Assembly (NCBI GenBank): GCA_022822565.1
Contig: JAJEAX010000280.1
Location: 1-43,990, forward strand
Origin: Candidatus Latescibacterota bacterium
GTDB lineage: Bacteria; Latescibacterota; UBA2968
DNA length: 43,990 nucleotides
Direction of reading: 5' to 3'
Below, one piece after another: positions 1,956 to 43,182 of this stretch (position 1 is its first letter; each line of letters begins with the position of its first letter). The notes beneath the pieces are model-generated. The model did no database searches. It was not told where the DNA came from and saw nothing but the letters and a program-made list of their open reading frames with translations. Made by a program: the position numbers and the translations under genes.

Positions 1956-3509
1956 TCACGCAAGAGTTGTCTCGAACGCTATCAGATTGCGGGTCTCTCG
2001 GCTAAACTCTACCCCAATCAGATGTACCGGCTCGCCGCTGTCGCGATATTTATCCGCATATCCCTTTTCCTGCAATTGCGCCATTGCAGCCCCTTCGGAT
2101 GCCTGTTCCACCACTTTGAACTCGAACAGATACACATTGTCGTTGAAACGAACCGCCATGTCCAGACGCCCATCACTGCTGCTGTCTTCCACAACAATGT
2201 CGAATCCCACCGATGCGAAGTAGGAGTAGAAGACGCTGGCATAGTAGCCTTCGTAGTTCGCTATTTCATTGTTTGTGTGCCACTGGTAGGGGATGCTGGC
2301 AAAGAACGCCTTGAATAGGCTTTCCAGGCCAGCGAAGTCATTGACCAGTAATAGGTCATAGAGACGCGCACTGTGCTCTGCCTGCTGCGCGGGGCTTCCT
2401 GTCAAATGGTTGAGCAAGCTTTCGTTCAGGCTCTGGCGCACTTCCTGGTTTGGGTAACTCAGACGGTAGTAGGTTCTGCTACCTCGCGGTTCGGTTTGGA
2501 TAATCGTGAGATACCCGGTCTGGAACAGCAATGCTTCAGTGGCGATGTGGTCAACGTCGAATGTAGATAACAGTTCGTCACTGCCCAATATGTTGTCCAG
2601 GTCCAGCGTACCAACCCCGCGCGATAGCAGCGTCTCGATCAGAAATGTAGGCGTGCCGGTCTCAAACCACCACGCGCCGAAGCGTCGGCTATCGAAGAGC
2701 AAAAGGATATCGAAGGGGTTATAGACCTCCTCTCCCAGCCAGCTATAGCCGTTGTACCAGTGCCTTATCTCGTCCCTATCCAGACCGGGCAGTTCCGGTG
2801 CGAACACCGTATTTAGGTCTGCATCGGTATAGCCGCATATAGCCGAGTAACGCGCATCCAGCGTGATGTCCTTGAGGTTGTTGAGACCAGAGAACAGACT
2901 GACCTTGGAGAACTTGCTGACGCCCGTGAGGAGTGTGAACTTAATATGAGCATCGATATCCTTGATGGTCGCGTATAGACCGCGCAGAAAGTCGCGGTTG
3001 GCGCGTGCGACCTCTGGCACCTCAAGTGCGTCCAGAATCGGCTTATCGTATTCATCCACCAGAACGACAACGCGTTGCCCCACCTCCCGATGCAATACCC
3101 GGATCAGGTCGCCAAAGCACTCTGGTGCCGTATCGTAACGCGGCGCAATATCGGCTTCTTCCGCTATCGTGTGTAGTTGCGTCATCACATTTGCATGCAA
3201 GTAGCCAGGCTCTTTGTAATTGCCGCTGCCAAAGCTCAAGCGCACAACGGGATAGCGAACAGACCAATCCCATTGATCGTGGATGTATAGCCCCTCGAAC
3301 AGCGGTTCATTGCCCTCAAACAGTTCCTTCAACGTGTCCAGAAATAGGCTCTTGCCAAAGCGACGTGGACGCGACAGAAAGTAGTGCTTACCCTCGTCCA
3401 TCAGTCGCTGAATGAGGGCCGTTTTATCGACATAGTAGCAGTTCTCCTCTCGTATCTCGCGAAAGGTCTGAATGCCGATAGGCAACTTGCATCTGTCTGA
3501 TATGCCCAT
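1956..3509 (-). CDS. AAA-ATPase-like protein with C-terminal PD-(D/E)XK nuclease domain (PDDEXK_9 type)
   Basis: LPIGIQTF...YYVDKT; Walker A SRPRRFGKS; Walker B VLVDEYDKP; YNPF; C-terminal GRLD...FEFK...Q...KGY motif. Confidence 0.92.
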   Translation of the reverse strand: MGISDRCKLPIGIQTFREIREENCYYVDKTALIQRLMDEGKHYFLSRPRRFGKSLFLDTLKELFEGNEPLFEGLYIHDQWDWSVRYPVVRLSFGSGNYKEPGYLHANVMTQLHTIAEEADIAPRYDTAPECFGDLIRVLHREVGQRVVVLVDEYDKPILDALEVPEVARANRDFLRGLYATIKDIDAHIKFTLLTGVSKFSKVSLFSGLNNLKDITLDARYSAICGYTDADLNTVFAPELPGLDRDEIRHWYNGYSWLGEEVYNPFDILLLFDSRRFGAWWFETGTPTFLIETLLSRGVGTLDLDNILGSDELLSTFDVDHIATEALLFQTGYLTIIQTEPRGSRTYYRLSYPNQEVRQSLNESLLNHLTGSPAQQAEHSARLYDLLLVNDFAGLESLFKAFFASIPYQWHTNNEIANYEGYYASVFYSYFASVGFDIVVEDSSSDGRLDMAVRFNDNVYLFEFKVVEQASEGAAMAQLQEKGYADKYRDSGEPVHLIGVEFSRETRNLIAFETTLA

Positions 3510-33593: not shown

Positions 33594-33714
33594 GGTACAT
33601 ATCTTTCACGACATCATTGCCGCCATTGACGATTTGCAACGCCTGAAGCAGTTGCATCGTGCGGCGGTCCAGGTCTCCAGTCTTGAGGCATTTGAGCAAG
33701 CGTTGGATACGTGA
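33592..33714 (+). pseudogene. Start-less remnant resembling the C-terminus of an Rpn/DUF4351-like protein
   Basis: Frame reads EVHIFHDIIAAIDDLQRLKQLHRAAVQVSSLEAFEQALDT*; no start codon or SD found. Confidence 0.5.
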
Positions 33715-33784
33715 CGCGATTTCCTCTAAAAAACGCCCCAGCATCGTTGTGCCGAGGCATTTAATAATTAGGAAAAAAGATGCT

Positions 33785-33838
33785 GTAGGAGCGGCATCCC
33801 TGCCGCGATCAAGGTCGGGAAAGGGATTTCCCTCCTAC
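33785..33838. repeat. REP doublet (REPIN-like), GTAG class
   Basis: GTAGGA-GCGGCA-TCCC-TGCCGC-GA on plus and GTAGGA-GGGAAA-TCCC-TTTCCC-GA on minus, inverted with a 6-nt spacer. Confidence 0.8.
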
Positions 33839-33871
33839 GCGACTGCAAGAACCTAAATAATTACCCCCACT

Positions 33872-34087
33872 TTATTGCTCAAAACCGGTGTACACATACA
33901 TCTTATCATCAGCCTCATCAAGCACATAGAATCGGTTGTTGGCATACGTGATACCTGCCGGATTACCGTTGAAAGCATACAGATCGAAGGGCGAGGTTGG
34001 TGTGCTTGTTGTTGGCGTCCCACCACCATCGCCACCGCCCGAAGAACTGGTCTCAAACTCCGCTACGTAAATCTCATCGTCGATCAT
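33872..34087 (-). pseudogene. Gly/Ser/Thr linker plus a single NHL/beta-propeller blade fragment
   Basis: SSSGGGDGGGTPTTSTP...NGNPAGITYANNRFYVLD..DDKMYVY; TAATG overlap with the upstream LRR ORF. Confidence 0.55.
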
Positions 34088-36124
34088 TAGCGCACACTAA
34101 CCCCTCTACTCCGAAGAGTTGGAATATGCACGTTGCGTGATGTGGCACTCAGTGGGTTGTTTCTCACATCAACCCTGTCTCCACTGCCCAATCCCGTGTT
34201 TGCGACCAGAGGTGCGATATCCGAGATGCTGTTGTCGGAAAGATCCAGGTCTGTCAGGTTGGTCAAGGAAGATAGTGCAGATATATCCGAGATGCTGTTG
34301 CCGTCAAGATACAGAAAGTCCAGATTGGTCAAATTAGATAGTGCAGATATATCCGAGATGCTGTTGCCGGAAAGAGATAGAAAGTCCAAGTTGGTCAAAT
34401 TAGATAGTGCAGACACATCCGAGATGCTGTTGTCGTCAAGACTCAGACTGGTCAGACCGGTCAAGCCCGCCAGCGCAGACACATCCGAGATGCGGTTGTT
34501 GTAAAGAATCAGGTCTGTCAGGTTGGTCAAATTAGATAGTGCAGACACATCTGAGATGCTGTTGCCGGAAAGCCACAGCTCTGTCAGACTGGTCAAATTC
34601 GCATTCGCCAGCCCAGACACATCTGAGATGCTGTTGTTGGAAAGCCACAGCTCTGTCAGACTGGTCAAATTCGCATTCGCCAGCCCAGACACATCCGAAA
34701 GGCTGTTGTAGGCAAGATCTAACTCTGTCAGGCTGGTCAAATTCGCCAGTGCAGACACATCCGATATGTTGTTTTCGTAAAGATACAGCACTGTCAGACT
34801 GGTCGCAAACTCAAGCCCGGTCAAGTCGCTGATGTTTGCATCATATGCCTCAAGGCGCGTCAAGGTCGCCATCTCTGCCCTCGTAATCGCCGCACCACTC
34901 GCCTTGCCCAGACTATCCGCAATCACCGCACGCAGGTTTGCATCTGGAATGGTAACTGACGTACTGCCGCCATCACTGCTATCACCGCCGCAGTTGACAA
35001 CGCCCGATTTGTTCGCAATCCCCTGCAGCCACGTCTGGAACGCGGCGTCTGTCGGTGCACACAACTGCGTGTTACGCAGATCCAGCAATCTCAAGTTAGT
35101 GAGGTTGACCAAAGACGTCGGCAACTCACCCGACAAAGCGGTGTTGCTGGAAAGCTCCAGAATTTCCAGGTTGGAAAGGTTGCCGATCCAAGTCGGTATC
35201 GCGCCGCTCAACTGGTTGTCGTAAAGATACAGAAATTTCAGGTTGGAAAGGTTGCCGATCCAGGTTGGGATTGCGCCGCTCAACCGCATACTTCTGAGTT
35301 CCAGACTTTCCAGTTTCGAGAGGTTGTCAAGCTCGGCTGGCACTGAACCGCTCCACGGATTCCCCCCCAAACTCAACCAAGTCAGATTGGAAAGGCTACC
35401 GATCCAAGTCGGTATCGGTCCATTCAACCGATTATTGCTGAGTCTCAGATTTGTCAGGTTGGTGAGTTGCCTCAGCTCAGAAGGTATAGCCCCGCTTAGC
35501 TGGTTGTTGCCGAGATCGAGCTTGCTGGTCAGGTTGGTGAGTTGTCCCAGTTCGGATGGTATAGCCCCACTTAGCTGGTTGTTGTAGAGATGCAGTCTTG
35601 TAAGTTTAGACAGGTTGCCCAACGCCGAAGGTATCTGTCCACGCAATTGGTTACCGGGCAGGTACAAATCAACAACCCGTCCGTTTTCGTCGGTGGTCAC
35701 GCCGTGCCATTCGCCCAGCGGCCTGTCGCTGAGCCAGTTCGCCTTATTCGTCCAGTTCGGCCCATTCGTCGCGTTATACAGTGCCTCCAGCGCATCCCGA
35801 TCCGACGAAGAAGCTGCATTAACGGTTACGGTCACCGCCGGGGAGCAGTTGTTGTCTGTATCGCTCTCCCCGCTGACGCTCTCAACACACGCACCGTAGT
35901 AGTAGGTCTCCGCACTTGACGGCGCAGTCAAACTGAGTGACTGGACACTCCTGCCCGAAGAAGGCAGGATACCTACCGAGGAACTATCTACCTGTCTGTC
36001 GCTTGAAGATATAGTCGCATCAACAGATTGATAGTAGCGCAAGGTCGTTGCAGGGGCTTGCCCATTGCCCTGATTGCGGACGGTTGCCTGAAGGGTGAAG
36101 GATTGTCCCGCCGTCAGGGTGTTA
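34087..36124 (-). pseudogene. C-terminal half of the giant LRR protein (CARDB3, plant-type LRR array, internalin-type LRR array), out of frame with the N-terminal half
   Basis: The frame stays open upstream of the ORF-track start (NTLTAGQSFTLQATVRNQG...LRYYQS) up to the 1-bp deletion near 36124. Confidence 0.85.
34230..34830 (-). repeat. Tandem 66/72-bp internalin-type LRR units
   Basis: Recurrent GATAGTGCAGA(C/T)A(C/T)ATC(C/T)GAGATGCTGTTG; about 9 units. Boundaries approximate. Confidence 0.85.
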
Positions 36125-39100
36125 CGTTTACCGAAGGGGATTCCACGATCGGGTCTGGACTGCCACCGCTACCGCTACGCCCTGAAGTATCCAGCGCGAT
36201 GCCGAATGGACCACGCAAGCCCGTAACGAGGTCTTCAACATTGGTACCATCCAGGTTAGACCGCTGAACCTTGCCTGCCTCACTGTCCGACCAATACATC
36301 TTCTTGGTACCCACATCCAGCGCAATGCCCACTGGATCACGCAATCCTGTGGTAACGAGGTCTTCAACATTGGTACCATCCAGGTTAGACCGCTGAATCT
36401 TGTCACTGTTCGTCCAGTACATCTTGTCGCTATTCACATCCAGCGCGATGCCAAATGGACCACGCAAGCCCGTAACGAGGTCTTCAACATTGGTACCATC
36501 CAGGTTAGACCGCTGAACCTTGCCTGCCTCACTGTCCGACCAATACATCTTCTTGGCACCCACATCCAGTGCAATGTTACCTGGCCAGTTCAATCCCGTA
36601 ACGAGGTCTTCCACGCCGCTCCCGTCCAGATTCGACCGCTGAATCTTGCTCGGCCCCGTGTCCGTCCAATAGATCTTGCCGCTGCCTACATCCAGTGCAA
36701 TGCTACTTGGCCAGTTCAATCCCGTAACGAGGTCTTCCACGCCGCTCCCGTCCAGATTCGACCGCTGAATCTTGCTCGGCCCCGGATCCAACAAATTCGA
36801 CCAATAGATCTTGCCGCTGCCTACATCCAGCGCAATGCCGCTTGGCCAGATCAATCCCGAGACAAGGTCTTCCACGCCGCTCCCGTCCAGATTCGACCGC
36901 TGAATCTTGCCCGCATTCCAATCCGTCCAGTAGATCTTTGGCGTTCCGCTGCCACTACTGACCGTGACCTGCACCGCAGGCGAGCAGTTGTTATTCGTAT
37001 TCGATTCGCCAGAGACAGACGCAACACACGCACCGTAGTAGTAGGTCCCCGCACTTGACGGCGCAGTCAAACTGATCGATTCATCATTGGTCATGGAAGC
37101 GGCAAGGCCATCCACCGCGTCCGTGCCAACTTCTGTATCACCGGTCGAAATCGTCGCGTCTGACGAGCGATAGTAGCGCAAGGTCGTAGAGGCCGATGCG
37201 CTACCACCCTGATTGCGAACCGTAGCACTCAGCGTGAAGGATTGCCCGACAGTCAGACTGCTGTTGCTCACCGAAGGCGACTCAACCACCAAATCCGGTC
37301 CGGTCTCCACCGTCACCCGAATCCCATCCGAGCAGTTGTTGTCGGTATCGCTCTCCCCGCTGACGCTCTCAACACACGCACCGTAATAGTAGGTCCCCGC
37401 ACTCGACGGCGCAGTCAAACTGATCGATTCAGCACTGGTCCTGGAAGCGGCAAGATCATCCACCGCGTCTGTGCCGACTTCTGTATCGGTTGTAGAGATC
37501 GTCGCGTCTGACGAGCGGTAGTAGCGCAAGGTCGTTGCAGCGGATTGCCTACTGCCCTGATTGCGGACCGTAGCACTCAGCGTGAAGGATTGTCCTGTTG
37601 TCAGGGTGTTATCGTTTACCGAAGGGGATTCCACGATCAGGTCTGGACTGCCACAGTTGACAACGCCCGATTTGCTCGCAATCCCCTGTAGCCACGTCTG
37701 GAACGCGGCGTCCATCGGCGCGCATAACCCCGTGTTCTGCATCGACAGGGTTGTGAGATTGTTCAGACCGGTGAATGAACCGGGCAACGGGCCGGAAAGA
37801 CCGGCGTTGCCGTTAAGATACAGCTCTTGCAGGTTTGTGAGGTTGCCCAGCCAAGATGGAATACCGCCCGTCAAATCGTTGGCGCCAAGCCACAGCTCTT
37901 GCAGGTTAGTGAGGTTGCCCAACTCGACAGGGATACTACCCGACAATTCGTTGGCGTAAAGAGCCAGCCGTGTCAGGTTTGTGAGGCTGCCCAGCCAAGA
38001 TGGAATACCGCCCGTCAAATCGTTGGCGCCAAGAGACAGAGCTGTCAGGTTCGTCAGGTTGCCCAACTCAGAGGGGATACCACCCGACAATTCGTTGAAG
38101 GAAAGATCCAGCACTGTCAGGTTAGTGAGGCTGCCCAACTCGGTAGGGATACCACCCGACAACTCGTTCTGGTAAAGAACCAGCCATTGCAGGTTTGTGA
38201 GGTTGCCCAACTCAGCAGGGATACGACCCGTCAATTCGTTGAAGGAAAGATCCAGCCGTGTCAGGTTGGTCAGGCTACCCAACTCAGCAGGGATACGACC
38301 CGACAACGGGTTGTTCCTAAGCCACAGCACTTCCAAGTTAGTGAGGTTGCCCAACTCGGATGGGATACCACCCGTCAAATCGTTGCCTTGAAGCCACAGT
38401 TCTGTCAGGTTGGCGAGGCTGCCCAGTTCTGACGGGATGCTGCCAGATAATCCGTTGCCGATAAAGTAGTAACCGCCGCTTGCACGTGTATCTACACCGA
38501 CCGTGTCACCGTCGCCGGTTGCGATGGCGTAAAGGCGTAATTGTGTCACCCGTCCACTGGCGTCGGCTGTCACGCCATACCATTCATTCAGCGGTCGATC
38601 ACTCAACCAGTTCGTCTTGAAACGCCAGTTCGGCCCATCCGTCGCGTTGTACAGTGCCACCAGCGCATCCCGATCCGACGCTGGCACGTCGCCGCAGTTG
38701 ACAACGCCCCGTTTGTTCGCAATCCCCTGCAGCCACGTCTGGAACGCGGCGTCCGTCGGCGCGCACAAACCCGTGCCATCCATATGTAGGAGTTCGAGAG
38801 CGTCCAGACCGGTGAATGAACCGGGCAACGGGCCGGAGAGACTGGCGTTGGCGAAAAGATACAGCTCTGTCAGGTTAGTGAGGTTGCCCAACTCGGCGGG
38901 GATACTGCCAGACAATTGGTTGCGGTCAAGAGCCAGCCCTATCAGGTTGGAGAGGCTACCCAATTCGGAGGGGATACCACCCGACAACGCGTTGTTCCTG
39001 AGCCACAGTACTTCCAGGTTAGTGAGGTTGCCCAACTCGACAGGGATACTACCAGACAAATCGTTGCCGTTAAGAGCCAGCCCTGTCAGGTTTGTGAGGC

Positions 39101-40670
39101 TGCCCAACTCGGAGGGGATACCACCCGACAACGCGTTGTTCCTGAGCCATAGCCGTGTCAGGTTTGTGAGGCTGCCCAACTCGGAGGGGATACCACCCGA
39201 CAACTCGTTGCCGTTAAGAGACAGCTCTGTCAGGTTAGTGAGGCTGCCCAACTCGGATGGGATACTGCCCGACAACTGGTTGCCATGAAGCCCCAGCACT
39301 TCCAGGTTGGTCAGGTTGCCCAACTCGGTAGGAATACGACCCGACAATGCGTTGTTGAAAAGATGCAGCACTTCCAGGTTTGTGAGGTTGCCCAGCCAAG
39401 ATGGAATACCGCCCGTCAAATCGTTGGCACCAAGATTCAGCCATGTCAAGTTGGTCAAGTTAGACAGCGCAGACACATCTGAGAGGCGGTTAAAGGAAAG
39501 ACTCAACGTTCTCAGGTTGGTCAGGCCGGATAGCGGCGAGAGGTCGGATATTTCGTTACTATTAACCAACCCCCCAGACACAGACACTGCACCAAGTACC
39601 AATCTTGTCAGACCAGTTGCATGCTCAAGCCCGGTCAAATCGCTGATGTTCGAGTTCGGTGCCGCAAGGCGCGTCAAGGTCGCCATCTCTGCCCTCGTGA
39701 TCGCCGCCCCCCTCGCCTTGCCCAGACTATCCGCAATCACCGCACGCAGGTTCGCATCCGGAATGTCAACTGCCGTTGCACTGCCACCACCGCCACCACC
39801 GCCAGGAGGCGTAGAGACATCTTTGCCATAGCTGATGCTAAAGATCAGAAAATCGCCAAAGCCTATCGCGCCATCGCTGTCTAAGTCATACTTCGTTTCA
39901 TATCTCCCATCGCTCTGACGGGCCCCATACTGACCCGCAAACACCAAAAAGTCGGAAAAATCGACCTTCCCATCGCGGTTAAAGTCCGGTGTGAGGACCT
40001 GTAACTGTAACTTTAACTCAACCCGCACATCCAGGGTCATACTTTGGAGTTGCCCACTTCGACCAAGCTCCGCACGCACCAACCGAATCACTGTGCCCGA
40101 AAACCCTCCTGTTGTGCGAAAGCGAACTGTGCCAACCAAACCACTGTTGGCTGTTGCTTGACCACCTAAAGACGCGATGCCTATTTCGACAAAACCTGTA
40201 CCTTGCGATGGCAGGGCCTGGGCATTGGGCAGCACATCGCCAGCAGCAAAACCGTCGTAAGTCACCTGACCGGCATCGTATTCAAAGCGCACTGAAAGAC
40301 CATTTGCATTGCGAATATCTTGCCCAAAGATCTGAATAGCGACCATCTCATCGGTGGATACATTGGCTGAGGTAACTGACTGATCACCTGCGCTACCATC
40401 CACATCCAGTGATAGAGAAAAGCTATTCTGCGCTGAACGGCCGGAATTAAACGACAGAGGCATCGCCGCTGTATTGCCATCATTCATTTTATTGTCGCTG
40501 GCATCAATGTCAACTGACACAACAGCATTGGCATTGGGACCTGCAGAGGCTTGACCTGCAAAGACCAGCAATGTCAGAATGATCAATAACAGATTTTGGA
40601 AAAAGGAGAACAGAGAGGCAAAGCCGGACAGTGCCAACGGTTGCTTCAATGTTGGGATGTGGTGTATCAT
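36114..40670 (-). CDS. Giant secreted eukaryotic-like protein: cohesin-like, dockerin/EF-hand, internalin LRR, two plant-type LRR arrays, two CARDB domains, YWTD (LDL-receptor) propeller; truncated by frameshift
   Basis: Signal ending ASA-G; DFNRDGKVDFSDF and DLDSDGAIGFGDF; IPDANLRAVI cap; LxxLxLxxNxLSGxIPxELG repeats; PDLIVESPSV...YYYGACV; KIYWTD/KMYWSD repeats. Confidence 0.9.
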   Translation of the reverse strand: MIHHIPTLKQPLALSGFASLFSFFQNLLLIILTLLVFAGQASAGPNANAVVSVDIDASDNKMNDGNTAAMPLSFNSGRSAQNSFSLSLDVDGSAGDQSVTSANVSTDEMVAIQIFGQDIRNANGLSVRFEYDAGQVTYDGFAAGDVLPNAQALPSQGTGFVEIGIASLGGQATANSGLVGTVRFRTTGGFSGTVIRLVRAELGRSGQLQSMTLDVRVELKLQLQVLTPDFNRDGKVDFSDFLVFAGQYGARQSDGRYETKYDLDSDGAIGFGDFLIFSISYGKDVSTPPGGGGGGGSATAVDIPDANLRAVIADSLGKARGAAITRAEMATLTRLAAPNSNISDLTGLEHATGLTRLVLGAVSVSGGLVNSNEISDLSPLSGLTNLRTLSLSFNRLSDVSALSNLTNLTWLNLGANDLTGGIPSWLGNLTNLEVLHLFNNALSGRIPTELGNLTNLEVLGLHGNQLSGSIPSELGSLTNLTELSLNGNELSGGIPSELGSLTNLTRLWLRNNALSGGIPSELGSLTNLTGLALNGNDLSGSIPVELGNLTNLEVLWLRNNALSGGIPSELGSLSNLIGLALDRNQLSGSIPAELGNLTNLTELYLFANASLSGPLPGSFTGLDALELLHMDGTGLCAPTDAAFQTWLQGIANKRGVVNCGDVPASDRDALVALYNATDGPNWRFKTNWLSDRPLNEWYGVTADASGRVTQLRLYAIATGDGDTVGVDTRASGGYYFIGNGLSGSIPSELGSLANLTELWLQGNDLTGGIPSELGNLTNLEVLWLRNNPLSGRIPAELGSLTNLTRLDLSFNELTGRIPAELGNLTNLQWLVLYQNELSGGIPTELGSLTNLTVLDLSFNELSGGIPSELGNLTNLTALSLGANDLTGGIPSWLGSLTNLTRLALYANELSGSIPVELGNLTNLQELWLGANDLTGGIPSWLGNLTNLQELYLNGNAGLSGPLPGSFTGLNNLTTLSMQNTGLCAPMDAAFQTWLQGIASKSGVVNCGSPDLIVESPSVNDNTLTTGQSFTLSATVRNQGSRQSAATTLRYYRSSDATISTTDTEVGTDAVDDLAASRTSAESISLTAPSSAGTYYYGACVESVSGESDTDNNCSDGIRVTVETGPDLVVESPSVSNSSLTVGQSFTLSATVRNQGGSASASTTLRYYRSSDATISTGDTEVGTDAVDGLAASMTNDESISLTAPSSAGTYYYGACVASVSGESNTNNNCSPAVQVTVSSGSGTPKIYWTDWNAGKIQRSNLDGSGVEDLVSGLIWPSGIALDVGSGKIYWSNLLDPGPSKIQRSNLDGSGVEDLVTGLNWPSSIALDVGSGKIYWTDTGPSKIQRSNLDGSGVEDLVTGLNWPGNIALDVGAKKMYWSDSEAGKVQRSNLDGTNVEDLVTGLRGPFGIALDVNSDKMYWTNSDKIQRSNLDGTNVEDLVTTGLRDPVGIALDVGTKKMYWSDSEAGKVQRSNLDGTNVEDLVTGLRGPFGIALDTSGRSGSGGSPDPIVESPSVNVTP
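36185..36940 (-). repeat. YWTD repeats (about 120-135 bp, near-identical DNA)
   Basis: GGTCTTCAACATTGGTACCATCCAGGTTAGACCGCTGAA x3 and GGTCTTCCACGCCGCTCCCGTCCAGATTCGACCGCTGAATCTTG x3, giving 6 blades. Confidence 0.85.
37740..39460 (-). repeat. Two arrays of 72-bp plant-type LRR units
   Basis: Recurrent GTCAGGTT(A/T)GTGAGG(T/C)TGCCCAACTC and GGGATACCACCCGACAA; about 9 units per array, separated by a cap domain. Confidence 0.88.
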
Positions 40671-40717
40671 CTTCTGTTTCCACCCTTGGTTTTGAGGTTC
40701 TGGTGTTTGAGATTGTG

Positions 40718-40750
40718 AAAGAGAGCAGGCGATCGCCTGTCTCTCTCCTT
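40718..40750 (-). terminator. Hairpin or terminator between the two secreted-protein genes
   Basis: Minus strand GAGAGAGACAGGCGATCGCCTGCTCTCTTTC; core 14-bp palindrome CAGGCGATCGCCTG. Confidence 0.5.
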
Positions 40751-40876
40751 TACTCGTTCAGATTTTATTTTTTAATCAGATCAGCCCGTTGCTTTTCTCC
40801 GATTGGCATAGGGCGCATCAAGTACTCGTACTCGACTTGCATCGAGTCTTCTATTTGTCTCAAGTTTTTCAATTTT

Positions 40877-42274
40877 CTACAAATCCGATTGGTCTAAACG
40901 TGCTTTTAGTCTATCGTGGGCGTCTATAATTTCTTGTGGAATTGCACCTACCTTACGCCCCTGGTCAGCAAGCTCAGGTGGGATAGCTAATTTAGGAGCG
41001 TGAACGTCAAAACCCTCGCCTTGTGTGCGGCCACTATTAGAGGTAAGATTATATACACTCCCTTGATTGATCGACTCGCCTTTGTCATAGAAATACATAA
41101 TGCCCACTGCCTTGTCGCCTTGAATATCAAAGACAAAGAAGCCATTATAGCTACTGTTGCTCTCCAAAATTGTGTACTGGCTTAACCCTTTGCTATAACC
41201 GCCAAGAATCCTACGCCCCCAATCATCACCCCCCCATACAGGCAGTTCCCCGTCGTTAAACGCCTGGTCAGAGATATATCCCAAAATGTAATAGTAATCT
41301 AATACGCTGCTGCCTGATAGCCCAGCGATCAGCTTCCAAAATCCCAATAAATTTCTGGCGCGTTCTTCTTGCGGGGTCGCGCTACCCACTGTGATGGTGT
41401 CACGAATGGTATTCTGAACCGTAATCGTATCACGAATAGTATTCTGAACCGTGATGGTGTCGCGGATGGTGACGGTATTCTGGAGGGTGATGGTATCACG
41501 GATGGTATTTTGGACGGTGATCGTATCACGGACAACATCGCGGAGAATAACCGTATCCCGAACAGTATTTTGAACTGTAATGGTGTCACGGGCGGTAATC
41601 GTAACCGTATCACGGACAGTAACCTGAACAACGCGCACAACAGGTTGTGGCGGTGTCGGTGCTGGCCCTGTCCGCCCAAAATTGTCCACGAACAGCAGAA
41701 AGTCGGTGAAATTAACATTGCCATCAAGGTTCAGATCACCGGGGAAAGGTTTTATCGTGTTGGTAAAAAGAACAGTGCTTGTCGATGTGATGACATCAGA
41801 GGATGTAGCAGTTTCGGCCAACACGACGCTTTGGAGACCGATGAAAAAATCTCGACCCGTCACATCTGCTATTGTTGTAAACGTCGCTTGCCCCAAAAAA
41901 CCCGATGGTGGCAAAGAAACAGGCACAGGCGAGGCAAGGTTCGCCCCTGTTGACTCTGGAATCACAAAGGCAAACGCGCTATTTTCAACGCTGACAAAAG
42001 ACACCAGGGACGTGTCAAAATCAAATATGATTGACATCCCTGAAAGTGGTGTGGTGACACCTTTTGCAAACACTTCAACAACAATAGTCGCGCCTTGGCC
42101 AGAAACAGTACCCGAGATAACACCATCATCTACCTGATTGCCTTGTCCGCCAGCAGGCACAAGGTCGAGAGTAATGGTGGCATTGATATTCGCGCCAGCA
42201 TGAACCTGAGAAATAAATACTACACCAGCAAACAACAGACAGAAAAGCACAGCACAGATAAACTTTTTCAACAT
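40877..42274 (-). CDS. Secreted protein with cohesin-like domain, dockerin/EF-hand, Thr/Val-rich repeat and unknown C-terminal beta domain
   Basis: Signal ending VHA-G; FDFDTSLVSFVSVE; GDLNLDGNVNFTDFLLF..NFG; RDTITVQNT repeats. Confidence 0.8.
   Translation of the reverse strand: MLKKFICAVLFCLLFAGVVFISQVHAGANINATITLDLVPAGGQGNQVDDGVISGTVSGQGATIVVEVFAKGVTTPLSGMSIIFDFDTSLVSFVSVENSAFAFVIPESTGANLASPVPVSLPPSGFLGQATFTTIADVTGRDFFIGLQSVVLAETATSSDVITSTSTVLFTNTIKPFPGDLNLDGNVNFTDFLLFVDNFGRTGPAPTPPQPVVRVVQVTVRDTVTITARDTITVQNTVRDTVILRDVVRDTITVQNTIRDTITLQNTVTIRDTITVQNTIRDTITVQNTIRDTITVGSATPQEERARNLLGFWKLIAGLSGSSVLDYYYILGYISDQAFNDGELPVWGGDDWGRRILGGYSKGLSQYTILESNSSYNGFFVFDIQGDKAVGIMYFYDKGESINQGSVYNLTSNSGRTQGEGFDVHAPKLAIPPELADQGRKVGAIPQEIIDAHDRLKARLDQSDL
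41386..41620 (-). repeat. Coding tandem repeat (about 30 bp, [VI]RDT[IV]TVQNT)
   Basis: 8 copies of RDT[IV]; DNA unit similar to GTATCACG(A/G)A...GTATT(C/T)TG. Confidence 0.85.
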
Positions 42275-42298
42275 CTTTCCCTCCCTGACAATTAAGAA

Positions 42299-42628
42299 TT
42301 AAAAAACCTGCTCCACAAGCATCCAGAAAAACGCCAGAACCCCCACGAATACCAAAGCTGGTTGTATTAGTGGAATTATCGCCATCGCTATTATAGACAA
42401 CAGCACTATTACAGATATAGACAACAGCAACATTGGCCATGTCCCGGATACTTCTTTCCCGCGTGAAACACTCATCACAAGTGCCCACACCCATCCGATA
42501 AATGTCCAACCGAGAAAGAGGTTGATGACAAAAACCTTGCCCAAATCACTGTGCTTGCGAATAGCTGCAACAATGACCGGCACAAAATACAGAAAGACAA
42601 AAAACAAAAGCCCTACCAACTCGCCCAT
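42299..42628 (-). CDS. Superinfection immunity (T4 Imm-like) membrane protein with extra TM helices
   Basis: LYFVP.IVAA.RKH......F.INLFLGWT.IGW..AL signature; SD AGGAG. Confidence 0.85.
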   Translation of the reverse strand: MGELVGLLFFVFLYFVPVIVAAIRKHSDLGKVFVINLFLGWTFIGWVWALVMSVSRGKEVSGTWPMLLLSISVIVLLSIIAMAIIPLIQPALVFVGVLAFFWMLVEQVF

Positions 42629-42645
42629 CTAATTTCTCCTAAACA

Positions 42646-42845
42646 GTGGGATTCGCTTATTCTAAACAAGGACGAAAACGAGATACAAGATGGTTCGGCT
42701 ATAAGGTGCATATGACTGAAACGTGTGAGAAAAATCAACCCAACCTGGTGATCCACGTAGAAACACGGTCAGCACCTCAAGATGATCAGAGCTTTGACAT
42801 CACCCATTTTCATTTTGATTGGAAAAACAAAAAAACCGTGCCAGT
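42646..42845 (+). pseudogene. IS1182/IS5-like DDE transposase internal remnant
   Basis: RKRDTRWFGYKVHMTETCE...PNLV.HVET..A..DD joined directly to F..DW; no start and apparently internally deleted. Confidence 0.7.
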
Positions 42846-42871
42846 ACATAACTCAGGAGAAAAAATGCAAC

Positions 42872-42951
42872 TTGATTTTGTGGTTTTGGCGTTTTACATT
42901 GTGAAACAGAGCGGGTGACGGTTTACAAGGCCGTTCCTATCTCTATTTTTT
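42872..42951 (+). ncRNA. Candidate small RNA unit: promoter, hairpin and U-tract
   Basis: TTGATT-17-TACATT, then AGAG...GACGGTT-TACAA-GGCCGTT...CTCT-ATTTTTT. Confidence 0.35.
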
Positions 42952-43182
42952 GCGGCGAAGGGCCACAAGGCTCTCCAACCCAGACAGCCCTTCGCCGTTC
43001 ACACAGGCGCAATTAACGCACGCCTGCGGTTTATTCATTCAAATTACCCTTTGACAACGTTTGATATTTACCACCCAAATAATATCTCCAAACGGAGATT
43101 GTCAAGAGTTTTTACCATATAAAATAAAACGCTACCCGGTTGTAAAGTAAACAACCGATACCCATGTCCCGATATTCACCCC

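What the first reader, a model, noticed from the sequence alone, without database searches (positions are those of the whole stretch)
37740..39460. VLR-like combinatorial mosaic of LRR binding residues (top candidate system)
Seen: the 72-bp units have a near-invariant DNA framework while the exposed xxLxLxx positions vary, and the same sub-blocks recur in new combinations within and between arrays. Examples: EV-H-FN, EV-G-HG, EV-W-RN (x2), TR-W-RN, TR-D-SF, TV-D-SF, TR-A-YA, TE-S-NG, TG-A-NG, TA-S-GA, QE-W-GA, TW-N-GA. The block GANDLTGGIPSWLG appears 3 times behind different strands. Known: these positions form the concave ligand-binding face, and lamprey VLRs diversify by templated LRR copying. 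Inference: sub-repeat gene conversion generates a variable bacterial surface receptor repertoire for host or phage recognition. No recombinase or reverse transcriptase is visible in the window.
Basis: partly seen in the sequence, partly recalled or inferred. Interest (0 to 1): 0.78.

Follow-up and report, generated by a model that had tools for sequence, protein, structure and literature searches.

The report
Fast-evolving plant-type LRR arrays, sponge symbiont
Two arrays of plant-type leucine-rich repeats inside one giant secreted protein of a sponge-associated bacterium vary mainly at their binding-face residues and have swapped pieces, which fits ordinary repeat evolution better than a lamprey-like receptor-assembly system.

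Summary
Window 37740-39460 holds two arrays of 24-residue plant-type LRRs in one 1518-aa ORF (36114-40670, minus strand). Variation is concentrated at the xxLxLxx positions: dN/dS is 2.8 there and 0.22 in the framework. The DNA framework is not near-invariant: synonymous difference is 0.32 and units are 60-93% identical.

Sub-repeat mosaicism is supported:
- Two units are clean chimeras (exact p 8e-6 and 1.2e-5).
- A 54-nt exact tract is shared between the arrays.
- Site compatibility decays with distance.

A VLR-like system is not supported:
- The gene is complete.
- No donor-cassette bank was found in the 4.6-Mb genome.
- No reverse transcriptase was found in 5 genomes.
- No base-specific mutation signature was found.
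- No recombinase or deaminase family hit appeared among 33 window proteins.

The gene sits in a 9.6-kb island that is absent at this site in all 5 relatives where both flanking genes were found. Population-level variation could not be tested.

Best reading: a eukaryote-like LRR protein of a Latescibacterota sponge symbiont, evolving by unit birth and death, intragenic conversion and diversifying selection. This scan reported the same pattern before on other genomes. It is a new member of a known kind.

The parts
36114..40670 (-). ORF P0001, 1518 aa. Order of parts: N-terminal hydrophobic signal-like segment, cohesin-like domain, dockerin-like pair, short 22-residue LRR run, LRR array A with cap, N-cap-like segment, LRR array B with cap, 2 CARDB domains, YWTD repeats, and the start of a third CARDB.
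   Evidence: Pfam LRR_4/LRR_1/LRR_8/LRR_14, CARDB, Ldl_recept_b over cut-off
38886..39461 (-). LRR array A: 8 ungapped 72-bp units, A1-A8
   Evidence: TRF
38691..38885 (-). Last, irregular unit A9 plus the two-cysteine C-terminal cap of array A
   Evidence: no Pfam family covers the cap
38532..38678 (-). N-cap-like segment of module B (SDRDAL...GRVTQLRL). It has no cysteines and no Pfam hit.
37845..38420 (-). LRR array B: 8 ungapped 72-bp units, B2-B9, alternating S-type and N-type units
   Evidence: period 144 matches better than 72
37650..37844 (-). Unit B10 plus the C-terminal cap of array B. It is 84% identical in DNA to the array A cap block.
39102..39173 (-). Chimeric unit A5. Its first 23 nt are identical to B8, and nt 25-65 are identical to A7.
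   Evidence: exact p 7.65e-6 against Bonferroni 1.89e-5
37845..37916 (-). Chimeric unit B9. The 5' part is like B3, and the 3' 39 nt are identical to A1.
   Evidence: exact p 1.22e-5
37830..37883 (.). One copy of the longest exact repeat in the region, 54 nt. The other copy starts at 39375. It spans a unit boundary in both arrays.
40008..40424 (-). Cohesin-like beta-sandwich
   Evidence: the top-ranked Foldseek PDB matches are almost all cohesins, best E 4.6e-8; model pLDDT about 75 here
39846..39986 (-). Dockerin-like calcium-binding pair
   Evidence: Dockerin_1, 19.8 bits, below the 22.9 cut-off; conserved D/F/L columns
34087..36042 (-). ORF P0002, 651 aa. It starts in mid-CARDB and holds a third plant-type LRR array with cap (about 34987-35688) and a 22-residue LRR array (about 34123-34950). 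It continues the same gene after a frameshift.
36124..36125 (-). Frameshift site. One base is absent relative to the paralogous CARDB copy, which splits a gene of about 2190 codons into two ORFs.
   Evidence: D11; an X1 contig covers 35869-36234 with 0 differences (probably the same data as the assembly)
33596..43174 (.). Lineage-specific island of about 9.6 kb between the sulfatase stop codon and its terminator. It carries the LRR gene, a cohesin/dockerin-like neighbour gene, an Imm_superinfect gene and an unassigned short ORF.

Best explanation
The region encodes two of the three plant-type (24-residue) LRR solenoids of one large modular protein. The protein looks exported. The organism is a sponge-associated Latescibacterota bacterium, and the protein belongs to the eukaryote-like LRR class.

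Shown here:
- The repeats have a conserved hydrophobic and Asn framework.
- Residues on the beta-strand face differ faster than silent sites.
- Units have been duplicated partly as two-unit blocks.
- Pieces shorter than a unit have been exchanged within and between arrays.
- The whole gene lies in an island missing from close relatives.
- The family varies from 0 to 27 matches per genome in the genus.

Inferred:
- The arrays evolve in the germline by unequal recombination and gene conversion between the 23-54-nt identical framework stretches.
- Selection favours new binding-face residues. The protein would bind host or environmental ligands at the cell surface, possibly held there through its cohesin-like and dockerin-like modules.
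- No dedicated diversification enzyme or donor-cassette store is involved.
For: Repeat anatomy and per-site variation:
- The same entropy profile appears in 237 units from relatives' loci.

Recent origin of the two modules:
- The cap blocks of A and B are 84% identical in DNA (86% at third positions). The third module is about 71% identical.

Mosaicism:
- Chimeric units A5 and B9.
- A 54-nt exact inter-array tract.
- PHI against permutation and against 150 tree simulations.
- The YWTD and CARDB repeats of the same gene also hold 42-51-nt blocks that are 98-100% identical. Exchange is therefore a property of all repeats in the gene, not of the LRRs alone.

No special machinery:
- Unit profile hits are confined to this gene.
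- RVT_1 is found in 0 of 5 genomes, while the control search rings in 3 of 14 known genomes.
- All four bases change at similar rates at variable codons: 0.35-0.45 in five relatives' arrays.
- The window's other genes are housekeeping genes.

Birth and death of the family:
- 16 of 21 genus genomes have such modules, 0-27 matches each, best 63% identity.
- The best hit among 5.8 billion proteins is 56% identical.
- The locus is empty in 5 relatives whose purL is 95-97% identical.

Fast change of the face residues after duplication:
- Across 19 arrays, framework pS runs from 0.03 to 0.72 while face pN is always 0.40-0.73.
- In relative L031, two modules differ at 12 of 507 nt, and 10 of the 11 changed codons are non-synonymous.

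Fold and class:
-.

Habitat label:
- (sponge metagenome).
- Relatives' record titles name Latescibacterota.
Against: - Positive selection is inferred from paralogous repeats, not from orthologs. The face positions are near saturation (pN 0.6), so dN/dS of 2.8 is rough.
- The PHI simulation treats sites as independent. Several changes falling together in one codon could mimic local compatibility. The nucleotide PHI signal vanishes at window sizes 10 and 15.
- Mantel correlations between unit segments are weakly positive (r 0.03-0.35), so some tree-like signal remains.
- None of the window's 16 five-residue face words occurs among the 237 relatives' units. That fits fast turnover, but it also fits simple old divergence.
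- The gene is frameshifted, so it may be decaying rather than under selection.
- Export and surface location rest on reading the N-terminus by eye and on a cohesin-like fold. No ligand is known.
- Rare population variants could not be examined.
Confidence: 0.78

Rival explanations
1. Programmed, high-frequency variation, VLR-like or like bacterial antigenic variation. The three arrays of the gene, or unassembled silent cassettes, act as donors. Segmental gene conversion would then give each cell lineage a different binding face.
For: - Sub-unit chimeras and a 54-nt exact inter-array tract show that conversion does occur.
- The genome is a 433-contig draft, 91.5% complete, so repeats could be missing from it.
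- Contigs cannot exclude rare variants.
Against: - The gene is a complete ORF.
- No cassette bank was found.
- No recombinase, reverse transcriptase or deaminase family hit appeared in the window.
- Units differ by dS about 0.4, so most exchange is old.
- The exact pieces of X1 contigs listed agree with the assembly.
- Complete single-contig relatives with up to 27 modules carry them inside long open frames.
Confidence: 0.06
2. Static specialised binding site. Each repeat's face residues were fixed long ago to fit one extended ligand, as in plant peptide receptors, and are now under purifying selection. The variable look would be only old divergence between repeats.
For: - Units are old: framework pS 0.32, identity 60-93%.
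- Solved relatives such as FLS2 and GSO1 bind single extended ligands along non-identical repeats (molecule names; the binding mode is recalled).
Against: - The gene is absent from close relatives at this site and has no ortholog above 63% identity.
- Young arrays in relatives already show face pN of 0.40 at framework pS of 0.03.
- Exchanges more recent than the A/B module duplication are visible.
Confidence: 0.13
3. Targeted hypermutation of the face codons by a diversity-generating retroelement or a deaminase.
For: - In relative L031 the consensus face codons are mostly AAY, and variants differ by 1-3 nt in an otherwise 99% identical framework.
Against: - RVT_1 is found in 0 of 5 genomes, L031's genome among them.
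- Changes start from A, C, G and T at similar rates, 0.35-0.45.
- Third codon positions change less than first and second positions, as expected from selection on amino acids and not from a base-blind or base-specific mutator.
Confidence: 0.02
4. Assembly artefact: chimeric units created by mis-joining short reads across repeats.
For: - The genome is a short-contig draft.
- 460 of 1721 bases lie in exact repeats of 31 nt or more.
- Logan contigs break inside the arrays.
Against: - The longest exact repeat is 54 nt, which is short.
- An X1 contig of 738 nt covers 38004-38741 with 0 differences, and others cover the flanks, though probably from the same reads.
- Single-contig relatives show the same kind of arrays.
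Confidence: 0.03

Closest known systems
Eukaryote-like LRR proteins (ELPs) of sponge symbionts, including sponge-associated Latescibacterota
   Same: - The run that holds the stretch is labelled sponge metagenome, and relatives are Latescibacterota MAGs.
- LRR domains are among the ELP classes counted in all 10 sponge Latescibacterota MAGs of PMC12993501 (passages read).
   Different: - That paper counts domains only.
- The passages I read describe neither the per-position variation, the sub-unit chimeras, the cohesin/dockerin-CARDB-YWTD architecture nor the island location.
- Its supplements were not seen.
Plant LRR receptor kinase and receptor-like protein ectodomains, and plant R-gene clusters
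   Same: - It has the 24-residue plant-specific repeat. phmmer gives E 1e-169 to GSO1 and 9e-159 to FLS2.
- The evolutionary mode is the same: birth and death, gene conversion between paralogs, and positive selection on solvent-exposed LRR residues, as in the coffee SH3 cluster (PMC3113787, abstract read).
   Different: - It is bacterial, with no kinase or transmembrane module.
- The N-cap has no cysteines and no LRRNT_2 hit, and the C-cap is a different two-cysteine cap.
- Exchange here is mostly between repeats of one gene rather than between clustered genes.
Lamprey and hagfish variable lymphocyte receptors
   Same: - Both are LRR solenoids whose concave-face residues vary.
- New combinations arise by copying pieces shorter than a whole repeat.
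   Different: - VLRs are assembled somatically from an incomplete gene and flanking donor cassettes with AID-like deaminases (recalled).
- Here the gene is complete, no donor bank was found, no deaminase hit appeared among the window's proteins, and no somatic diversity is shown.
Ectocarpus LRR-ROCO genes (exon shuffling of LRR units)
   Same: - Repeat-sized LRR units are shuffled within a fast birth-and-death family with diversifying selection on the LRR domain (PMC3341825, abstract read).
   Different: - There, each repeat is an exon and introns mediate the shuffling.
- Here there are no introns, and breakpoints fall inside units.
TAL effector repeats
   Same: - Tandem repeats with a homogenised DNA framework and a few repeat-variable residues. 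This is seen strongly in relatives' arrays (framework identity 0.99 in L031) and weakly in the window (0.85).
   Different: - The fold and ligand differ. TALEs bind DNA (recalled).
- There are five or six variable positions interleaved with framework codons, not one di-residue.
Bacterial antigenic variation by segmental gene conversion (pilE/pilS, vlsE, tprK; recalled)
   Same: - Mosaic coding sequence built by short conversion tracts.
   Different: - Those systems have silent donor loci and show variation within a clone.
- Neither was found here.

Membership tests
Plant-specific (PS) class LRR | Repeat length of 24 residues in long tandem arrays | tested here: met
   16 ungapped 72-bp units in register; TRF period 72
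Plant-specific (PS) class LRR | Consensus LxxLxLxxNxLSGxIPxxLGxLxx (consensus recalled) | tested here: met
   L2, L5, L8, L10, N13, L15, G17, I19, P20, L23 and G24 are invariant in 16 of 16 units. Position 16 is S or T.
Plant-specific (PS) class LRR | Significant similarity to solved plant LRR ectodomains and to Pfam LRR models | tested here: met
   GSO1 9.9e-170, FLS2 8.8e-159; LRR_4, LRR_1, LRR_8 and LRR_14 over cut-off
Plant-specific (PS) class LRR | Plant-type cysteine-pair N-terminal cap (LRRNT_2, PF08263) | tested here: not met
   No LRRNT_2 hit at E <= 0.01. The N-cap-like segment has no cysteine.
VLR-type somatic assembly system | Incomplete germline gene that needs assembly | tested here: not met
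   Continuous 1518-codon ORF with both arrays in frame
VLR-type somatic assembly system | Bank of donor LRR cassettes near the gene or elsewhere in the genome | tested here: not met
   nhmmer unit profile gives 26 hits: 21 in this gene pair and 5 weak ones on C116, C149 and C175, contigs that also give tblastn LRR matches. The genome is 91.5% complete in 433 contigs, so absence is not proven.
VLR-type somatic assembly system | AID/APOBEC-like cytidine deaminase linked to the process | tested here: inconclusive
   No deaminase family hit among 33 window proteins scanned. No C/G-biased change spectrum. The whole genome was not searched for deaminases.
VLR-type somatic assembly system | Different assembled genes in different cells of one population | not testable with these tools
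   Only contigs of the runs are held, and they drop rare variants.
Diversity-generating retroelement | Reverse transcriptase with a template repeat | tested here: not met
   RVT_1 in 0 of 5 genomes (G000, G004, G007, G008, G010). The control search rings in 3 of 14 known genomes.
Diversity-generating retroelement | Adenine-specific substitutions | tested here: not met
   Changes per source base are A 0.38, C 0.35, G 0.44, T 0.45 in five relatives' arrays. In the window gene they are A 0.62, C 0.22, G 0.46, T 0.53 on small counts.
Eukaryote-like repeat proteins of sponge symbionts (LRR class) | Encoded by a sponge-associated bacterium | tested here: met
   The run holding 0.89 of the stretch's words is labelled sponge metagenome, as are the other three runs. 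This may be the source sample itself.
Eukaryote-like repeat proteins of sponge symbionts (LRR class) | Repeat domain typical of eukaryotes in an exported protein | tested here: inconclusive
   The LRR class is met. Export rests on a hydrophobic N-terminal segment read by eye; no signal-peptide predictor was run.
Cohesin-dockerin module proteins | Cohesin fold and dockerin calcium-binding pair | tested here: inconclusive
   The top-ranked Foldseek matches are almost all cohesins, best E 4.6e-8, TM 0.57-0.70 on the target, from a model with pLDDT about 75. Dockerin_1 scores 19.8 bits, below its 22.9 cut-off. No Pfam cohesin hit. Binding was not tested.

The most novel reading that the evidence does not exclude
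The three LRR arrays of this one gene, and the many arrays in relatives, might work as a self-contained contingency locus. Frequent RecA-type conversion between 23-54-nt identical framework stretches would reshuffle binding-face segments fast enough for a symbiont population inside one sponge to carry a standing repertoire of receptor variants. That would be a bacterial functional analogue of VLR diversity without donor cassettes or a dedicated enzyme.

The near-identical frameworks with very different face codons in relatives (L031: framework pS 0.03, face pN 0.40) would then be the footprint of that process.
Probability: 0.07. Interest if true: 0.75.

Novelty: new member of a known kind. Interest (0 to 1): 0.3.

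Why it matters
LRR proteins are among the gene classes repeatedly found enriched in sponge symbionts, yet what they bind and how they evolve is little studied.

This locus gives a dissected example with three features:
- Binding-face residues that evolve faster than silent sites.
- Demonstrable sub-repeat exchange.
- Presence/absence polymorphism between close species.

Together these point to a host-interaction or surface-recognition family under an arms-race or partner-matching regime, much like plant immune receptors. It also shows that a VLR-like look in raw sequence does not by itself indicate a programmed diversification system.

The near-identical frameworks in relatives' arrays would be the better place to test for ongoing variation.

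Tried and rejected
- **Reads.** All four runs are held only as Logan contigs, which drop rare variants. The listed joints inside the arrays have sides of 20-24 nt and are out of unit register (for example a skip of 255, not a multiple of 72). At the 85% likeness setting they probably come from paralogs or other organisms. Nothing can be said about population variants, and parts without listed cover mean nothing.
- **Strain-level orthologs.** The metagenome-contig scan found 2 loci, both only 33% identical to the YWTD part. Genome contigs gave 19 loci, none an ortholog of the arrays. The protein search gave at least 7985 hits, best 56% identity, and P0001 is a cluster of one. No ortholog-based dN/dS was therefore possible.
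- **DGR and deaminase ideas.** Rejected.
- **Mantel tests between unit segments.** Correlations were weak (r 0.03-0.35), which is uninformative on its own.
- **Colinearity of arrays A and B.** Best unit matches are scrambled (A1-B7, A6-B8, A7-B3, A2-B5). With 72-nt units this cannot separate rearrangement from noise.
- **Region L068.** It was fetched on the wrong side of purL or is rearranged. It gave no matches and is not counted among the informative relatives.
- **Single-sequence structure model.** The LRR part is usable (pLDDT 75-95), but the N-cap is not (below 50).
- **The search of earlier findings by place.** It returned nothing for this genome.
- **Paper searches.** I found no paper describing sub-repeat mosaicism in bacterial plant-type LRR arrays. 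These four term sets are the only basis for that statement, and supplements were closed.
Full report
**What is there**

The finding lies inside one minus-strand ORF, 36114-40670, of 1518 codons. Pfam places LRR families, two CARDB domains and five or more LDL-receptor class B (YWTD) repeats in it.

Read in 24-residue register, the region holds these parts:
- Array A: units A1-A8 at 38886-39461, plus an irregular ninth unit and a two-cysteine cap at 38691-38885.
- An N-cap-like segment.
- Array B: units B2-B9 at 37845-38420, plus a tenth unit and cap at 37650-37844.

The next ORF (34087-36042) begins in the middle of a CARDB domain. It carries a third plant-type array and a 22-residue LRR array. 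Comparison with the paralogous CARDB copy shows a single missing base between 36125 and 36124. The two ORFs are therefore one gene of about 2190 codons broken by a frameshift.

The N-terminus has a hydrophobic, signal-like segment (read by eye). It is followed by a domain whose model matches cohesins (best Foldseek E 4.6e-8) and by a dockerin-like pair below Pfam's cut-off.

**Check of the observation**

- Variation is strongly concentrated. Eleven of 24 positions are invariant in 16 of 16 units, while codons 6, 7, 9, 11, 12 and 14 carry 4-9 residues each.
- At these six codons pN is 0.60 and pS 0.32 (dN/dS 2.8). In the other 18 codons pN is 0.09 and pS 0.32 (dN/dS 0.22). Codon 14 was added to the variable class after I had seen the data.
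Units are 60-93% identical, framework identity averages 0.85, and silent sites differ as much in the framework as in the variable codons. The copies are old.
- The model of module B has a strand every 24 residues covering unit positions 5-12, so the variable residues lie on the beta-sheet face.
- By sequence the module is closest to plant LRR receptor-kinase ectodomains.

**Is it a mosaic?**

- PHI on 34 informative sites is significant for the nearest five neighbours (p=0.0002) but not for 10 or 15.
- I simulated along the maximum-likelihood tree with IQ-TREE's per-site rates. This gives PHI z-scores of +0.40 ± 1.04, with 0 of 150 as low as the observed -3.18.
- With whole codons as characters, PHI stays significant (p 0.001-0.02). 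Incompatibility rises from 0.23 at 1-2 nt to about 1.0 beyond 6 nt.
- A 3SEQ-type scan of 2640 triplets finds perfect two-parent patterns. A5 equals B8 over its first 23 nt and equals A7 over nt 25-65 (exact p 7.65e-6). B9 is B3-like at its 5' end and equals A1 over its last 39 nt (p 1.22e-5). The Bonferroni level is 1.89e-5.
- The longest exact repeat in the region is 54 nt. It is shared between the A1/A2 and B9/B10 junctions, while the flanking cap blocks of the two modules are only 84% identical.

Sub-unit exchange within and between arrays is therefore real. Three caveats apply. The simulation assumes independent sites. The units are only 72 nt long. Segment distances still correlate weakly (Mantel r 0.03-0.35), and TRF's better fit at periods 144 and 216 shows ordinary block duplication too.

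The YWTD and CARDB repeats of the same gene also contain 42-51-nt blocks that are 98-100% identical. Exchange is therefore not special to the LRRs.

**Is it a system?**

- A DNA profile of the unit finds 26 hits in the 4.6-Mb genome. Of these, 21 are in this gene pair and 5 are weak hits on three contigs that also give tblastn LRR matches. tblastn with module B finds only those four contigs.
- The 33 window proteins I scanned are housekeeping genes or the island's own genes. None hits a recombinase, reverse transcriptase or deaminase family.
- RVT_1 is absent from 5 of 5 genomes searched. Three of those are single-contig relatives rich in such arrays.
- Changes at variable codons start from all four bases at similar rates.
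- The gene is complete rather than awaiting assembly.

On every VLR feature that could be tested the answer is therefore negative or inconclusive. The one that matters most, diversity within a population, could not be tested, because the runs are held only as contigs.

**Context and family**

- Related loci come from Latescibacterota MAGs. The run that holds the stretch is labelled sponge metagenome.
- In the genus, 16 of 21 genomes have such modules, with 0-27 matches each and at most 63% identity to module B.
- Among 5.8 billion proteins the best match is 56% identical, and at least 7985 proteins match.
- In 237 units taken from 23 relatives' loci the entropy profile is the same. None of the window's 16 face words recurs there, and framework DNA identity to the window is 0.665, against 0.85 within the gene.
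- Across 19 arrays, framework pS spans 0.03-0.72 while face pN is always 0.40-0.73.
- The youngest array (L031) has a 99% identical framework, face codons up to 3 nt apart, and two modules whose 12 differences in 507 nt are almost all non-synonymous. The face residues change very quickly after duplication.
- The gene lies in an island. purL, the peptidase and the sulfatase upstream are 89-97% identical in relatives. In 5 of the 8 regions fetched, the sulfatase is followed within about 130-240 nt by the TPR gene that in the window lies 9.7 kb away, and none of the 8 holds an LRR gene there. Homology stops at 33595 and resumes at about 43175.

**Explanation**

The best reading is a eukaryote-like, plant-type LRR protein of a sponge symbiont that evolves like plant resistance-gene families: birth and death of genes and units, recombination and conversion between repeats, and diversifying selection on the binding face. 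Comparable cases are the coffee SH3 cluster (PMC3113787, abstract) and LRR exon shuffling in Ectocarpus (PMC3341825, abstract). LRR domains have been counted in sponge Latescibacterota MAGs (PMC12993501, passages).

This scan reached similar conclusions on other genomes. I treat those notes as leads, and my tests here agree with them. The residual novel reading is a self-contained contingency locus, to which I give about 7%.

Noticed in passing
window 33596-43174: The LRR gene sits in an island of about 9.6 kb, inserted between the sulfatase stop codon and its terminator. In 5 relatives the sulfatase is followed directly by the TPR gene. None of the 8 fetched regions has an LRR gene there.
   Followed up: yes
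window 36124-36125: A one-base frameshift splits the gene into ORFs of 1518 and 651 codons. It lies at the edge of a 42-nt block (36125-36166) that is 98% identical to 37613-37654. It may be real decay, a recombination scar or an assembly or sequencing error.
   Followed up: partly
window 40877-42274 (-): The neighbouring 465-aa ORF has no Pfam hit. It shares the cohesin-like plus dockerin-like N-terminal region with P0001 (25% identity, E 8e-6) and contains 30/66-nt tandem repeats at 41391-41532, which encode a repeated short peptide motif.
   Followed up: partly
window 39846-40424 (-): A cohesin-like fold and a dockerin-like pair occur in the same protein. The module is conserved (30-80% identity) in many paralogs across relatives, including three copies on contig C116 of this genome. 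It could let these proteins dock onto each other.
   Followed up: partly
window 42299-42918: An Imm_superinfect-family small membrane protein (42299-42628) sits next to a 90-aa ORF (42646-42918) that has no Pfam hit. By eye the second ORF resembles a transposase remnant (resemblance recalled). GC is lower here (0.44-0.48) than in the LRR gene.
   Followed up: no
Framework DNA is 99% (11 units) and 91% (22 units) identical, while face codons differ by 1-3 nt. In L031, two whole CARDB-LRR modules differ at only 12 of 507 nt outside the arrays.
   Followed up: partly
window 36189-36911 (-): The YWTD (LDL-receptor class B) blades form a 126-nt tandem array with 51-nt blocks that are 98-100% identical between blades. 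This suggests conversion there too.
   Followed up: no
window 37650-37730 and 38691-38770 (-): The two-cysteine C-terminal cap (GLCAP...VVNCG) closing each plant-type array has no Pfam family. The same cap was noted by this scan in other marine bacteria.
   Followed up: no
window 1956-3509 (-): A gene for a predicted AAA-ATPase_like plus PD-(D/E)XK_9 nuclease-family protein, about 34 kb from the LRR gene. Nothing links the two.
   Followed up: no
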